Made by a program: the position numbers. This document shows positions 12,001 through 27,000 of a stretch of 64,000 nucleotides of DNA, piece after piece; positions within the stretch are counted from its first letter, which is position 1; each line of letters opens with the position of its first letter. The stretch is from the NCBI RefSeq assembly GCF_021869535.1, contig NW_026262690.1, forward strand, positions 91,822,001 through 91,886,000, given 5' to 3'. The stretch comes from Mytilus californianus (Eukaryota).

Positions 12001-15000
12001 TTTACTTTTTAGCGTTGGTTGCTCATTTTTTGTGATTTTAAAATTCGTGGTTTCCTAATCTAAAGGATAATAAATAATTTTATTGTTTGTGCATCAAAAT
12101 GAAATGACGCCATTGGTCGAATTTCTTTTCTTGATAACCAATCACAACGTTTTTGCTGTACGCTTTTGAACATGTATTATAATATTTTAAATTATATGCT
12201 GTTTTTTTTGTGGTTTTTTCTTTGGCACTGCTTCACAAAATGTCTGGTTTATTTTTTTTTCAGATTTGTTTCTTCTTGGAACTGCTTTGAGAAAATTCTA
12301 GTCTATGTAAGCTATACTTTTATTTTTATTTTTGAACGTACCTTGAAAGATTATTAAGAAAAAAAGTGCGCACCCCAAAACGACCCTTTTTGATTTTATC
12401 AGCTTTTCAACGTTTGTATTAGGTTTTGGACTTTCAAATATTTTGGCCTCGAGCATCACCGAAGAGACATTGATTGTCGAAATGCGCATCTGGTGTAGAA
12501 AAATTGGTACCGTTAATGTTATTAGTATGTTTATAGATCAGCATTGGGAATTGTTCTGACATCATATACAGTAACCTCAATGATCCAAAGACAAGTATTT
12601 CTGACAGTCGGGTTCCATTGGGAATAGTGTTTCTCACTAAAATAGCAGTTAATATCATAAATTCTGTAAAAACTTCAAAATTAAAAATTAAAAAGCCAAC
12701 AAACCAAAAATGAAAATATTTCAATCCCAAGAACGGGAAAGGACCTAAACAGAACAGTAAAATTAGTTTATTGGGATTTTCTAACAAAATATGCCAAATT
12801 AATTATGTTTGTACATAATACTGTATTCTCATAGAGAAAGAGTATTAACTCAGTTATACAGTTGTCTGTTAATACCGACAAAAAGCCATCATGATGATAA
12901 AATTATATGTTACGCATGACAGAAGCATTATTTTTATGAACTTTATACCTTAAAGTCAACATCAAACATCAGTTAGACGAGTTATGATCGTCCCTGAATT
13001 TCCCATTCTGGTCAAAATTTCCGAACAGAAAAAAGACGGGAAACATACGAAACAAATCCAAAATGACAGTTACAATATATTTTAGAAATATATGACAATT
13101 TCAAATAATGTCTATATTTCAAAATTTATTTGAATAATAAATCGAAAACTCTTAAGACGGCTTGGTTTGTTGAAGAATCAGTAAAAAAATTTCTACCTTC
13201 AAGAATTTATATTTTAATTCACTGCGAATTTGTATGTAGGACTTTTGTTTTCGCTTTTCATCAATCAGTATAATATTTACTGCTGATAAGTAACGTTAAA
13301 CGAATGGCGTTGTTGTTTTGCTTTAGATGAAGTGCTGTTCTTGGCATCGTTCATTAATAAGTAAACTATCTTATATAAACAATAACTCATACTTTCTATT
13401 AATCAGTTGATTCTAAAGTCAATATAATTTAATTATTTATCTTATTCAACAGATGCTCTTTGCTGATACTTATTTTTTCTGCTTAAGCTCTGACCGTTAA
13501 CTTTTATCTTGATAAGCAGACACATACCAAGAGAATAACACCACAAGAACGACCTTCAATAGCTCTCTTAGCTGATAATATAATCTGTATTAACTATCAC
13601 CCATTAGATGCATATATAAATATATACTATAGATTTTTCTACGTCACGATTTTGACGTTGAATTTGCTATACAAAAACCTTGTTTGAGATGGCCAGTTTT
13701 GTATATAGCCATGGCTGGTAAGTACGGATTAATTCGTGCATGTAGTTCGTGAATCAGTGACCAAAAACGCCTTTGTAGAAAATACATAAGCGACCAGTAA
13801 TCAAAGCTTTGATTATTGTGCTACTCATGATGATTTACCTACGTTGTTTTCGGAATGGTAAGCATGCGTAGAATTGTCGTTCAATATTCTTATTCTTTAT
13901 ACGATTTAATGTAAGATTTGGTATAGAAAAGGACAGATGATGCTTTAATAGTGATTACTGATGTCGGTATAATATCTTCCGTTCGTTTGATCACTAGTGC
14001 TAGATTTTTTAGGAGTTTCCAATCTTTGTTCATAGTTTAAGTTCTCTCGTTTTTTCCCTCATTTTTTCCTTCATGACTATTAAGAAGTTTGAAGGTTATT
14101 CAGTCCAGCAGGTAGGGGGCTATTTATTTAGTATATTTGCCAAAATTTTCACTACCAGAGCATGCTGCAAATGTTTTTTTTAACTAAATAATCAACAAAC
14201 TCTTCACAATGAAAATTATCTCAAGTGTTTCACTGCAATCTTCAATCGACTTTTTTAAAATTCAATTAATCTACTTCGTTTTATTTAACAACACTACATG
14301 AGCAAGCATGTTTTGAATCATTTTACATTTAACATGGATATTGTTCTTAGGTCTTTTAAAACCTTAATTCGTGTCACAATTATATTCGGTTGGTTAAATA
14401 TGTAGATACGTTTGAATTCTGTTCGGAACAAAGAAGGTAAATATAAATATGCATGTTTAAAAGTTTATCTGTATTTAAATGTACATTTTCTTTGCACACT
14501 TATTTTTAATGACAATTTTAAATTTGTCTATAAAGTTTTCATTCGTGAACGGATCTTTTTGTTATATTGCTTCTATTTGATGTATCCGGGTAATCAAGAT
14601 TCCCAAAATATTGACACCCGTACAAGGGGACATAATCGACCAATTTTACTGGTTAATCCCATTCACAATAATAAGTAGATTGATTGATTGAATGTTAGTT
14701 GCTTGACGTCCAGTTGCAAATATTTCATGCATATTCAGGACGAGAACAAATTTACAATAATACAATAGCCTGGTCATGTAATAGAGGCCGTCCGGAATAA
14801 AGGTTGGGGATATTTTGGACTGGCACTGTAAAATAAGGTTATATTTGACTGGGACGGAAATTTTGCCTTGCAACTAGCCACCTATGTACCCCTTCATTGA
14901 GTTGTTGCAAGAGTTCTTAACGTACAAAGAGCGTGGTTCTCTGACTAAACGAGGCATCCGATTTAACGTGCCCATTCTGACCGGATGTGGCTGCGTAATT

Positions 15001-24000: not shown

Positions 24001-27000
24001 TTTTTTTTAAATCATATATTTAATTCTTATTTGACGAAAATGAGTAAAATGAAATTAAATGCAAAAAGGATCGTCTCGCTTTGCTTTCCGTAAGCATACA
24101 ACATTTAAACACATATTCAAACTTTTTTTAATTCTGCTAGAGGTTACGTACTGGTACAGATGACCTTCACGCAAAATGTAATACGGTCAAAGAGTTTACA
24201 AGAAGTGAAATTAAATTAGATGCACTAAATCGTACTAAGATAGCGTTTCAATTGAATTTCAGATCAAAGAAAATATTTTTTTTACTTTTCAGAGATAGAA
24301 AACTTATTAAAGAACGGATTGCCGAGAAAAGACGGACAAAATTAGAAGAAAGTGCATATGACAATTATACCGAGCTAGAGACTCGTGAAATTGAACATCC
24401 AGTGTCATTGCCAAATATATCCATTGAAGTTCCATTAGGCCAAAGTCCTTCATATAGCAAATCAAAACGAATGGACAAATCATGCACAAAGCGTTCAGAA
24501 AAGACACAAAAATCCCCCATTAGATTAAATGTTCCAATGGGTGATACTCGTGAAACTGCACCTCCGTGGAACTATATTCCTTCTCGGAAGGCTACGAAAA
24601 ACATTATCAGGAGAAATTCGTACGACATGGCCATAGGGCGATATACAGTATTATGCAGTAAATATGGTGGAACGCCTATAGTCAATGGAACTGCCACAAA
24701 CTGTAGTACGATAGCTTACGAAAATAGTGCATACTGTGAAAATTCATCAGATATTGTTTTATAACTTAAAAATCATTGTATAATCTTCACAACTATGAAA
24801 ATATCTTAAAAATTACTTCAATATCGAATACTATGTTATATAATATTATGTTGCACTCAGAAAAACGTGATCAGGTCCACAAAATTATTACATTGTGACT
24901 TCATTTTGTGCTCTAGAAACCGCCAAATTAATTGTACGGATGAACTCTTACAAAATTTTCAGATTTTAATGTAACGTGGGTAACGTCTTGTGACCAGTCG
25001 ATTCGCTCATGTAAAATAACTAACCAATATCCATTCATAAAGAATCTCATCAGTATACTGATACGGTTGCTTTTTAAAAAAATAGCTTTTCCAATTATTA
25101 ATATTTTTTTATGATAATATTTCTCTTCTAAAACAACTTTTATCATGGTGTGAATAGTCTTAACCCCAGGATGACTGTGCTATAATAAACATGGGATCCT
25201 GGTTCACTGCTCAACAGAGGACTACTATACCCCCCCCCAAAAAAAAAAAATTATGACCCTCAAGTTATATCATCTTTCGTAATCACCGAATGACATAATA
25301 TGACATAAAGTGATATAATATGGGGGTCATAAATAGAAGATGGGGGTCATAAATAACTTATGTGATTATGACCCCCATATTATATCACTTTATGTCATAT
25401 TATGTCCTTTGGTGATTACGAAAGATGATATAACTTGGGGGTCATAATTTTTTGGGGGGGTCCAAGAACCCCCTATAGTAGTCAGAAGAGGTTTGGTCAG
25501 AATGACTGTGCTATAGTTAGCATGGTATCCTGACTCACTGCTCGACAGAGGAGGTTTGGTCAGAATGACTGTGCTATTATTAGTTAGCATGGGATCCCGA
25601 CTCACTTCTCGACAGAAGCGGTTTGGCCAGGATAACTGTGCTATAGTTAGCATGGGATCCTGGTTCACTGCTCGACAGAGGAGGTTTGGCCAGGATGCCA
25701 GGCTAGGTATTATAATATGGTTACCTGGATATCAACTGTCAGCAAGATCAATACTGAGTCTGGGTTCATTTTGGCTGTGTGGGATGTATATATACGCAGC
25801 CACGTCCGATAGGTTTTAATGGTTTCTGTGTAAAATTTGATATATCATTACGTGTTGCTGCATTGTACTCTTTTGCGTGCGCGTTTGAAAAAAACATAAA
25901 AGAACATTCGAAAAAGATTACAGTTTAAACACGACATTCTGCAATCACAGAGTATCAAAATATCAAGTAAAGACTTATATTTTATCTTCACAAAATCATT
26001 TTGGTGTGAATAGTCTTAACCCCAGGATGACTGTGCTATAGTTAGCATAGAATCCTGACTCACTGCTCGACAGAAGAGGTTTGGACAGGATGACTGTGCT
26101 ATAGTTAGCACGGGATCCTAACTCACAGTCATCCTGGCCAACCTTCCACATGTACCATGTACATCATACCGTGGTTTGCAGATCTTTGATCAAATAAAAA
26201 AAATCCACATAAGACTATTTGGTAACAAAGTTACTTATAACAAAGTCACACAGATAAGGCATATGCAGTATTTTGTACGGAAATTTGTCTTTGAAGAATG
26301 TATAATGCTAAAACATACGAAAGTTGGGATCCTCTTACAAAAGAGGTTATATAACAAAAAATAATGAAGTTTCATAGTACTGTCAAATTCGTTAAGGGGG
26401 TATAATACGGGCAAATCTTAGTTTTTTGAAGAAGTGGAAGGAGAAGTTATTCGAGTTTTTTTTCATTTGTGTTTCATCAAGGCAAATTTTCAAAACACCT
26501 ACAAGCCAGCGAGGAAGTAAAACACATTCATTAACTAATGAAGCTAAACAGGTTGATGCTATTTTTAAACATCAAACGTATTTCCGTTTATTGTTACCTA
26601 TCGAACTATCCATATGTATTGAATGCATACATTGTTTTTATTTTGAACAACAACAAAAAACGACTATAAAGGACTACATTTCAAATGTCTCCTAATATTA
26701 ATCGATTTTTTTTATTTATGTGAAATCAATTGTTTTATTTTTTTAACACGCAACTGAAGAATTGATAAATCATTTCAATTTAAATGTCAGATTAAGAAGG
26801 ATGAAGGATTTTTGTCTTAGTTTTAAAACAACACCATTTTCTTTTTATCATTATACATATAAAGATCGAAGCTTTTGACGTTATATAAAGCTTTTTTCTC
26901 AGATGCGGCGTTAGAAGTCGCCAATCAATCCATCATTTATTTTCAAAAGATTTTCTGAAATTTATTTTGTGCGTCTTTTGATCTCAAACCCTAATCAGCG

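What the first reader, a model, noticed from the sequence alone, without database searches (positions are those of the whole stretch)
13711..24764. Predicted transmembrane-adaptor-like protein with a tiny ectodomain and nine tail tyrosines
Seen: three phase-compatible exons give a 203-aa protein. It has a ~20-aa N-terminus with an NVT sequon and no signal peptide, one TM helix containing a Cys, a basic stop-transfer stretch, and a low-structure tail. The tail holds YDN and YEN (YxN), YTEL and YTVL (YxxL), RRNS, and a C-terminal IVL. Established: YxN binds Grb2-type SH2 domains, and this architecture is that of vertebrate transmembrane adaptors (LAT/NTAL/SIT/TRIM). Inference: a possible convergent invertebrate signalling adaptor, near an immune lectin gene. 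Exon 1 is the least certain part.
Basis: partly seen in the sequence, partly recalled or inferred. Interest (0 to 1): 0.65.

Follow-up and report, generated by a model that had tools for sequence, protein, structure and literature searches.

The report
Mussel single-pass membrane docking protein
This is a real but uncharacterised mussel gene for a small membrane protein with almost no outside part and a floppy inner tail; it belongs to an unnamed family found across molluscs, and its conserved motifs only partly fit the proposed immune-adaptor role.

Summary
The window is Mytilus californianus. Exons 2 (20690-20822) and 3 (24293-24764) are real and match RefSeq 'uncharacterized protein LOC127738898' at 100%.

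RefSeq uses 13827-13857. Relatives and family-wide N-termini point to the ATG at 20725 (MASDVNVT...), giving 189 aa with about 8 residues outside.

The architecture is confirmed. There is one very hydrophobic TM helix running into a basic helix, then a disordered tail with nine Tyr.

The gene belongs to an unnamed family with no Pfam or PDB match. It occurs in bivalves, gastropods, a chiton, probably a cephalopod, and one annelid.

Family-wide conservation lies in three places:
- the TM/juxtamembrane module (invariant C..S..KA..DR);
- an RRxSYxxA site;
- a C-terminal [ED]NxA[FY] motif.

A Grb2-type YxN scaffold is therefore at most a mytilid-level feature.

Best reading: a membrane-anchored docking or accessory protein with a Ser-kinase site and an NPxY-like motif. 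It resembles vertebrate transmembrane adaptors in layout but is not a member. The 'lectin' is one fibrinogen-domain exon 34 kb away.

The parts
13711..13717 (+). Not supported as a coding exon.
   Evidence: The letters and donor are present. No public model for this species uses this donor. Read without splicing, it stops after 13 codons. Two ab initio models in sister species start with a similar peptide, M[GV]GKVNSSGLR, but splice elsewhere.
13827..13857 (+). Exon 1 coding part as used by the RefSeq model (MMIYLRCFRN+G, donor GTAAGC at 13858). Probably 5' UTR rather than conserved coding sequence.
   Evidence: It matches the first 11 residues of P0003. The N-terminal extensions differ in all four extended Mytilus models, and 188/189-aa models omit them.
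20690..20822 (+). Exon 2: the end of the 5' leader, the start codon, the short N-terminus, the TM helix and the first juxtamembrane residues.
   Evidence: Acceptor TTTCAG| and donor |GTAAGT. The translation matches P0003.
20725..20727 (+). Most likely start codon (context ACAGACATGG), giving MASDVNVT... and a 189-aa product.
   Evidence: Against a related genomic ORF, identity is 27 of 32 downstream of this Met but 2 of 32 upstream. M. trossulus RefSeq, M. coruscus, one M. galloprovincialis model and the unnamed full-length relatives P0005, P0007, P0069, P0078 and P0083 start here. Family N-termini are 3-16 aa in 30 of 34.
20749..20811 (+). TM helix GIVFGAIFGALFVFTCIISAI, with GxxxGxxxG and the family-invariant Cys and Ser.
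   Evidence: Kyte-Doolittle maximum 2.47. AF2 pLDDT above 90. The Cys is present in 33 of 34 and GxxxGxxxG in 16 of 34. C24, S27, K30, A31, D34 and R35 are invariant in 19 of 19.
24293..24764 (+). Exon 3: the rest of the basic juxtamembrane helix, the whole disordered tail, and the TAA stop at 24762-24764.
   Evidence: The intron position inside the Arg codon of R|DRK is shared by four genomic-type fragments (P0004, P0022, P0026, P0031), whose similarity starts at RDRK.
24354..24365 (+). Membrane-proximal AYDN (YxN).
   Evidence: Invariant in 6 of 6 close relatives. In the wider family it is present only as YEN, YDN, YVN or FDN in some lineages.
24609..24635 (+). RRNSYDMAI: the family-wide R-R-x-S-Y-x-x-A motif, a basophilic Ser-kinase consensus.
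   Evidence: R161, S164, Y165 and A168 are at least 90% conserved in A3. R.SY..A occurs in 32 of 44 proteins, fragments included.
24642..24653 (+). YTVL (YxxL), specific to the mytilid clade.
   Evidence: Y172, T173 and V174 are invariant in 6 of 6. Other lineages have HSWL, NSWL or similar at this place.
24714..24734 (+). AYENSAY: the family-wide C-terminal [ED]N.A[FY] motif, NPxY-like.
   Evidence: Found in 33 of 44 proteins within 30 residues of the C-terminus. N199 is at least 90% conserved.
25184..25189 (+). First AATAAA after the stop codon; a possible polyadenylation signal.
   Evidence: Pattern match only.

Best explanation
The gene encodes a small membrane protein of about 189 aa, inserted with its N-terminus outside and its C-terminus inside. 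It acts as a membrane-anchored docking or accessory protein rather than a receptor.

Shown:
- It is a real, conserved gene with two coding exons.
- It has an uncleaved, very hydrophobic signal-anchor helix that continues into a basic helix.
- Its cytoplasmic tail of about 140 aa is predicted to be disordered.
- It belongs to an unnamed family spread across molluscs.
- The family's most conserved part is the TM/juxtamembrane module.

Inferred:
1. The invariant Cys and Ser and the Gly-rich face of the TM helix hold the protein against a partner in the membrane, or against itself.
2. The near-invariant RRxSY site is phosphorylated on Ser by a basophilic kinase of the PKA type. This switches binding of the adjacent conserved SYxxA(I/V) stretch.
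3. The C-terminal (Y/F)(E/D)NxA(Y/F) motif is read like an NPxY signal, by a PTB- or FERM-type or endocytic adaptor. It does not need phosphotyrosine, because Phe replaces both aromatic positions freely.
4. In mytilids, extra invariant Tyr motifs (YDN, WNYIP, YTVL, YEN) may add SH2-type docking such as Grb2 on top of this older core.
For: Gene reality:
- The 207-codon open frame is unmatched in 200 shuffles.
- Exon 3 is 100% identical to a RefSeq protein.
- Orthologues at 90% identity or more occur in four other Mytilus species.

Family:
- 21 representatives at E <= 1e-3 among 1.84 billion.
- 33 hits with the TM/juxtamembrane profile.
- Named members come from 8 bivalve genera, Lottia, Nucella, Littorina, Liolophura, Acanthosepion and Owenia.

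Topology:
- The N-terminus has no basic residue. The C-terminal flank is KAVRDRKLIKERIAEKRRTK. By the positive-inside rule (established knowledge, recalled) this puts the tail in the cytoplasm.

Structure:
- AF2 gives a helix at 28-80 with high confidence and low confidence for the rest.

Conservation profile (share of the commonest residue):
- TM 0.53, juxtamembrane 0.61, RRNSY block 0.51, C-terminal motif 0.56.
- By contrast, 0.34 and 0.30 for the tail stretches 73-155 and 177-195.

Motif census:
- TM Cys in 33 of 34.
- R.SY..A in 32 of 44.
- C-terminal motif in 33 of 44, with F/Y exchange at both aromatic positions.

Literature:
- Most PTB domains prefer non-phosphorylated NPXY, and their specificity lies N-terminal to the Tyr (PMC3507883, passages).
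- R-R-x-S-hydrophobic as the PKA consensus is recalled textbook knowledge.
Against: - Nothing here shows localisation, phosphorylation or any binding partner. Every functional step is read from short motifs, which can arise and persist for other reasons.
- The C-terminal motif has the Pro of NPxY in only 2 of 33 sequences (P0024, P0025).
- GxxxGxxxG is strict in only 16 of 34.
- High TM conservation partly reflects the restricted alphabet of TM helices.
- An N-terminal anchor with a basic flank is also the layout of some ER and mitochondrial outer-membrane proteins, so the plasma membrane is not established.
- Several NxS/T sequons and four Cys in the tail would also fit an extracellular tail if the orientation were reversed.
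Confidence: 0.4

Rival explanations
1. One reading: a convergent invertebrate counterpart of LAT or NTAL. Src/Syk-type kinases would phosphorylate the tail tyrosines, and these would recruit Grb2 (pYxN) and other SH2 proteins in immune cells.
For: - The layout equals the published adaptor definition (PMC3342071, passages).
- Two YxN motifs and one YxxL are invariant in 6 of 6 mytilid-level relatives.
- All nine Tyr are kept in four Mytilus orthologues, though these are at least 90% identical overall.
- LIME1 and SCIMP clusters appear among language-model look-alikes, but only at ranks 21 and 25 with scores of 0.85, below the tool's 0.9 lead threshold.
Against: - Across the family the C-terminal YxN Tyr is Tyr in only 9 of 33. 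YTVL is absent outside mytilids.
- Tyr columns are not significantly more invariant than others (p = 0.11).
- There is no CxxC, and Pfam gives no adaptor family.
- The best-conserved tail motif is Ser-based.
- The lectin neighbour is 34 kb away.
- No expression data were available.
Confidence: 0.17
2. A regulatory single-span subunit of a pump, channel or receptor, working like FXYD/phospholemman or KCNE proteins. The conserved TM helix would dock onto a multi-pass partner, and Ser phosphorylation of the RRxS site would tune that partner.
For: - The TM/juxtamembrane module is the most conserved part, with six invariant residues in 19 of 19.
- Gly residues lie on one helix face.
- The RRxS site is near-invariant.
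- The likeness to phospholemman (short outside part, conserved TM glycines, basic flank, RRxS PKA site) is recalled, not tested.
Against: - No FXYD motif and no Pfam match.
- The tail is much longer than in those families and carries a second conserved motif at its very end, which suggests docking of cytosolic proteins.
- No partner is known.
Confidence: 0.22
3. An organelle-anchored protein (ER or mitochondrial outer membrane) with its tail in the cytosol, rather than a plasma-membrane protein.
For: A short uncharged N-terminus, one N-terminal TM and a strongly basic C-terminal flank also describe signal-anchored organelle proteins (recalled).
Against: The TM is very hydrophobic (2.47). By recalled knowledge this favours ER-targeted insertion and onward traffic. 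An NPxY-like end motif is typical of surface or endosomal cargo.
Confidence: 0.1
4. Reversed orientation: a type II protein whose 160-aa Ser/Thr/Asn-rich 'tail' is extracellular and glycosylated.
For: Five NxS/T sequons and four Cys occur in the tail.
Against: The charge difference across the TM strongly favours the tail inside. The sequons are not conserved, e.g. NIS becomes SIS and NGT becomes NGR. The conserved RRxS kinase consensus only makes sense in the cytosol.
Confidence: 0.03

Closest known systems
Vertebrate transmembrane adaptor proteins (LAT, NTAL/LAT2, PAG, LAX, LIME, SCIMP)
   Same: A few residues outside, one TM, and a long cytoplasmic tail without a domain but with Tyr motifs including YxN. 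LAT also has nine tail tyrosines (PMC3342071, passages).
   Different: - No sequence relation (look-alike scores of only 0.85).
- No juxtamembrane CxxC.
- Here the TM is the most conserved part.
- The family-wide tail motifs are a Ser site and an aromatic motif that tolerates Phe, not phosphotyrosine sites.
FXYD/phospholemman and KCNE-type single-span accessory subunits (comparison recalled, not run)
   Same: Small single-span proteins with a short outside part, conserved small residues in the TM, a basic flank and an RRxS kinase site that regulates a partner.
   Different: No FXYD motif, no signal peptide and no Pfam hit. The tail of about 140 aa is far longer and ends in a second conserved motif.
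NPxY/NxxY tails of endocytic and adhesion receptors (LDL-receptor family, APP, integrin beta; examples recalled)
   Same: Hydrophobic-x-N-x-x-Y/F near the C-terminus. Most PTB domains read such motifs without phosphorylation (PMC3507883, passages).
   Different: Pro after Asn occurs in only 2 of 33 sequences, and an Ala before the aromatic residue is conserved instead. No ectodomain to carry cargo.
Its own unnamed family: RefSeq/GenBank 'uncharacterized' or 'hypothetical' proteins of molluscs (e.g. LOC123527013 Mercenaria, LOTGIDRAFT_172545 Lottia, LOC135468788 Liolophura)
   Same: The same three modules in the same order, and the same intron position.
   Different: The mytilid branch has a shorter tail and extra invariant Tyr motifs. 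The Owenia (annelid) protein has about 97 aa and an apparent signal peptide before the TM.

Membership tests
Vertebrate transmembrane adaptor proteins (TRAPs) | Short extracellular part, single TM, and a cytoplasmic tail without enzymatic or modular domains | tested here: met
   8 aa (or 19-30 aa with the doubtful extensions) before the TM. One TM. The tail is disordered. No Pfam domain.
Vertebrate transmembrane adaptor proteins (TRAPs) | Juxtamembrane CxxC palmitoylation motif (LAT, NTAL, PAG; absent in LAX) | tested here: not met
   The only Cys near the membrane is a single one inside the TM, six residues before KAVRDR. No CxxC.
Vertebrate transmembrane adaptor proteins (TRAPs) | Several tail tyrosines in SH2-binding motifs, conserved among orthologues | tested here: inconclusive
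   5 of 8 alignable Tyr are invariant among six close relatives (p = 0.11 against other residues). Family-wide, only the Tyr of RRxSY holds. The YxN Tyr is Tyr in 9 of 33.
Vertebrate transmembrane adaptor proteins (TRAPs) | Sequence relation to a described adaptor family | tested here: not met
   Pfam scans of the two exon translations and of 22 family members gave no adaptor family. No PDB relative.
Vertebrate transmembrane adaptor proteins (TRAPs) | Tyr phosphorylation by Src/Syk-type kinases and recruitment of SH2 proteins | not testable with these tools
   Needs phosphoproteomics or pull-downs.
Unnamed molluscan TM/RRxSY/NxA[FY] family | TM plus juxtamembrane module with C..S..KA..DR | tested here: met
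   These residues are invariant in 19 of 19 aligned N-terminal modules, including this gene. Profile hits reach 94 bits.
Unnamed molluscan TM/RRxSY/NxA[FY] family | R-x-S-Y-x-x-A motif in the distal tail and [ED]N.[AS][FY] within 30 residues of the C-terminus | tested here: met
   RNSYDMA and ENSAY are present here. They occur in 32 of 44 and 33 of 44 family proteins, fragments included.
Unnamed molluscan TM/RRxSY/NxA[FY] family | Intron inside the Arg codon of KAV-R|DRK | tested here: met
   In the window, the donor follows GTCAG and the acceptor precedes AGATAGA. Four genomic-type fragments begin their similarity at RDRK.
FXYD / phospholemman | FXYD motif before the TM and a match to the family profile | tested here: not met
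   No such motif in the N-terminus. No Pfam match.
NPxY-type PTB/endocytic signals | Hydrophobic-x-N-P-x-Y/F in a cytoplasmic tail | tested here: inconclusive
   The Asn and the final aromatic residue are conserved (33 of 44 carry the motif). Pro is present in only 2 of 33.
NPxY-type PTB/endocytic signals | Binding by a PTB, FERM or adaptor-complex domain | not testable with these tools

The most novel reading that the evidence does not exclude
This could be an ancient signalling subunit specific to lophotrochozoans. Its invariant TM helix would dock onto receptors that lack a signalling tail of their own, as DAP12 or FcR-gamma do in vertebrates. Its tail would integrate a cyclic-nucleotide or Ca-dependent Ser switch (RRxSY) with PTB/SH2 adaptor recruitment. 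If so, molluscs would have invented a transmembrane-adaptor system independently, and mussels would have added Grb2-type YxN sites to it.
Probability: 0.12. Interest if true: 0.7.

Novelty: new variant of a known kind. Interest (0 to 1): 0.4.

Why it matters
Invertebrate immune and neural signalling is rich in receptors but poor in known membrane-proximal scaffolds. This family is conserved across molluscan classes, has no domain and no name, and has a layout like that of vertebrate transmembrane adaptors. That makes it a concrete, testable candidate for such a scaffold or for a regulatory subunit.

For annotation, the result fixes the likely start codon and shows that the varying N-terminal extensions in the public Mytilus models are probably artefacts. 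It also defines three motifs that could seed a family profile. If the tail motifs prove inert, this is simply one more lineage-restricted small membrane protein.

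Tried and rejected
- **Self-association.** I tested the TM/juxtamembrane segment (residues 23-82 of P0003, two copies) with complex prediction. The verdict was 'no answer' (score 0.08, mark 0.32). This is evidence neither for nor against binding.
- **Pfam.** The two exon translations and 22 family members gave only sub-threshold, scattered hits: Mucin15 E 0.026, UPF0239 E 0.16, TMIE E 0.016 in one member.
- **PDB.** The profile search gave nothing (one hit at E 0.97).
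- **Language-model look-alikes.** All scores were below 0.9. The hits were a mixed bag of small single-pass proteins (C1orf185, FAM163, stannin, A36R, TMIE, LIME1, SCIMP, TMEM52). I take them as a reflection of layout only.
- **SIE[ED] acidic motif.** I considered this as a fourth family motif and dropped it: 11 of 35.
- **Paralogues in the window.** None found by tblastn (next best E 0.55).
- **RNA genes.** Rfam and tRNA scans of the window found nothing.
- **Literature.** Six gene identifiers of family members returned 0 papers. 'Transmembrane adaptor' with Mytilus or invertebrate gave nothing relevant.
- **Fold search.** Not run, because the model is confident only for one helix.
Not assembled or searched.

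Full report
**What the window is.** This is therefore California mussel DNA and not human.

The full-length sequence used in alignments is the public protein that one search returned.

**Checking the observation.**
- Exon 2 (20690-20822) has acceptor TTTCAG| and donor |GTAAGT. Exon 3 (24293-24764) has acceptor TTTTCAG| and ends in TAA. Both agree letter for letter with the RefSeq protein.
- Exon 3 sits in a 207-codon open frame, the longest in the window. The next longest is 157 codons, in a satellite. None of 200 mononucleotide shuffles reached 207 (mean 122, maximum 177).
- There is one hydrophobic segment, IVFGAIFGALFVFTCIISA (Kyte-Doolittle 2.47, next best 0.6). The tail carries a net charge of +9.
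- AlphaFold2 was run on a 22-sequence alignment. It gives one long helix, residues 28-80 of the 211-aa form, with pLDDT above 90 for 31-70. Everything after about residue 80 is below roughly 55, apart from a weak helix at 162-171.

**Exon 1 and the start codon.**
RefSeq instead uses 13827-13857 (MMIYLRCFRN+G, donor GTAAGC).
- Neither extension looks conserved. Among Mytilus orthologues at 90% identity or more, the 188/189-aa forms start at MASDVNVT. These are M. trossulus RefSeq, M. coruscus, one M. galloprovincialis model and one unnamed sequence.
- The three longer models carry three different extensions.
- The unnamed full-length relatives P0005, P0007, P0078 and P0083 also start at MASD or MASG.
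- I compared the window with a related genomic ORF (P0032). Identity is 27 of 32 downstream of that Met but 2 of 32 upstream.
- The Met is the ATG at 20725 in exon 2, in context ACAGACATGG.
- The conserved product is therefore 189 aa with about 8 residues before the TM.
- The NVT sequon abuts the TM. It is found in 3 of 19 family N-termini. By recalled knowledge, a sequon this close to the membrane is not reached by oligosaccharyltransferase.
- Two ab initio models in sister species begin M[GV]GKVNSSGLR.

**A wider family.**
- A profile of the six closest sequences was scored against 1.84 billion representatives. It found 21 proteins at E <= 1e-3 and 9 at E <= 1e-10.
- A profile of the TM/juxtamembrane module alone, searched among proteins of 106-2000 aa, found 33 at E <= 0.01. 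Only the 7,999 candidates sharing the most words were scored.
- Every source name is 'uncharacterized' or 'hypothetical'.
- Bivalves: Mytilus, Ylistrum, Solemya, Mercenaria (four paralogues), Mactra (two), Mya, Sinanodonta, Ostrea and Saccostrea (two species).
- Gastropods: Lottia, Nucella, and Littorina (weaker, E = 2.5e-5).
- Others: the chiton Liolophura, the cuttlefish Acanthosepion (E = 3.9e-4) and the annelid Owenia.
- None has a Pfam domain or a solved relative.
- Six gene identifiers of members occur in none of the searchable papers. Supplementary tables could not be read.

**What is conserved.** I examined 44 family proteins, fragments included.
- 34 carry the TM plus KAVRDR anchor.
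- The N-terminus before the TM is 16 aa or less in 30 of those 34. The exceptions are 21 aa (Ylistrum), 30 aa (this gene's RefSeq extension), 81 aa (a low-complexity cuttlefish model whose transcript-type twin has 3) and 97 aa (Owenia).
- The TM Cys is present in 33 of 34. GxxxGxxxG is strict in 16 of 34.
- In 19 aligned N-terminal modules, C, S, K, A, D and R of C..S..KA..DR are invariant.
- R.SY..A occurs in 32 of 44. A C-terminal [ED]N.[AS][FY] occurs in 33 of 44.
- The share of the commonest residue is 0.53 (TM), 0.61 (juxtamembrane), 0.51 (RRNSY block) and 0.56 (C-terminal motif). It is 0.34 and 0.30 for the tail stretches 73-155 and 177-195.
- The intron inside the Arg codon of KAV-R|DRK is shared. 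Four genomic-type fragments start their similarity exactly at RDRK.

- Among the six mytilid-level relatives, the tyrosines of AYDN, WNYIP, SYD, YTV and AYEN are invariant.
- This is 5 of 8 Tyr columns against 40 of 118 other columns, Fisher p = 0.11.
- Across the family, the residue at the Tyr of the C-terminal YxN is F in 16, Y in 9, A in 3, C in 3 and V in 2. The final aromatic residue is F in 19 and Y in 14.
- YTVL is replaced by HSWL, NSWL and the like.
- A motif that tolerates Phe at both aromatic positions cannot depend on phosphotyrosine.
- It looks instead like an NPxY-type signal. Most PTB domains read such signals unphosphorylated, with specificity N-terminal to the Tyr (PMC3507883, passages). 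The Pro, however, is present in only 2 of 33.
This is a basophilic (PKA-type) Ser consensus by recalled textbook knowledge.
- There is no juxtamembrane CxxC, which LAT, NTAL and PAG have and LAX lacks (PMC3342071, passages).

**Mechanism.** I take the protein to be inserted with its N-terminus out and its tail in the cytoplasm, by the charge rule. The membrane it sits in is unknown.
- The conserved TM/juxtamembrane helix would position it next to a partner or itself.
- The disordered tail would display a Ser-kinase switch and an NPxY-like docking or sorting motif.
- The mytilid Tyr motifs would be a younger layer that could add SH2 docking.
- Only the anatomy and the conservation are shown. 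Every functional step is inference.

**Surroundings.**
- No paralogue lies in the window.
- ORFs of 70 aa or more on both strands gave one solid Pfam hit, an animal haem peroxidase exon at 28544-28771 on the minus strand (E = 1.6e-10).
- A shorter ORF at 58612-58761 on the plus strand is a Fibrinogen_C exon (E = 8.8e-14).
- It lies 34 kb downstream, beyond the peroxidase exon and next to retroelement-like ORFs. That gives no reason to link it to this gene.
- The introns hold tandem and dispersed repeats but no recognisable nested gene.

**Verdict.** This is a real gene, already annotated but uncharacterised. It is a member of an unnamed family spread across molluscs whose layout resembles vertebrate transmembrane adaptors. 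It fails the membership tests for them, and the family's conserved motifs point to Ser-phospho regulation and NPxY-like docking rather than a YxN/Grb2 scaffold. Interest is moderate.

Noticed in passing
window 58612-58761 (+): A fibrinogen-related domain exon (VIQKRYDGSVEFHRNWNDYENGFGN..EFWLG; Pfam Fibrinogen_C E = 8.8e-14). A possible earlier exon with GGWTV at 55122-55307 gave no Pfam hit. Retroelement-like ORFs follow at 58974-59991, so the gene may be fragmented.
   Followed up: partly
window 28544-28771 (-): An animal haem peroxidase exon (..NIQRGRDQTPPGYN..; Pfam An_peroxidase E = 1.6e-10). It lies between the finding and the fibrinogen exon. The rest of that gene was not traced.
   Followed up: partly
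window 8079-9694: A 28-bp satellite of about 58 copies with 78% matches. It causes the strong GC skew of that stretch and the long spurious ORFs on the minus strand.
   Followed up: no
window ~60000-64000: The same set of short ORFs recurs roughly every 540 bases on both strands. This indicates a long-period tandem array that the tandem-repeat run, with a longest period of 500, did not list.
   Followed up: no
window 13641-13658 and 13702-13707: Just upstream of the 5' exon there is an inverted pair, ACGTCA ... TGACGT, resembling cAMP-response-element half-sites. If the TATATA is a TATA box, transcription would start downstream of that ATG. This is unverified.
   Followed up: no
protein P0059 (unnamed source) and P0027 (Owenia fusiformis): Two relatives carry the family TM helix behind a much longer N-terminal part. 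P0059 has about 320 aa and ends exactly at ...KAVR, the shared intron position. Owenia has about 97 aa with an apparent signal peptide. They may be fused gene models, or a hint that the ancestral protein had an ectodomain.
   Followed up: partly
relatives P0012-P0019, P0028, P0029, P0050-P0056 (heterodont clams and oysters): These lineages share a tail block absent from Mytilus: LDLSVYSI..GVDN..F. It contains an ITIM-like SxYxxI and a second DNxxF motif. The oyster cluster also has members of several lengths, suggesting alternative splicing of the tail.
   Followed up: no
window 17487-17584 and 30249-30415: The same A-rich unit (AAAAAAAAAGGCAGGATGA...) forms short arrays at two distant places, one of them inside intron 1 of the gene. 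It is probably a dispersed repeat family.
   Followed up: no
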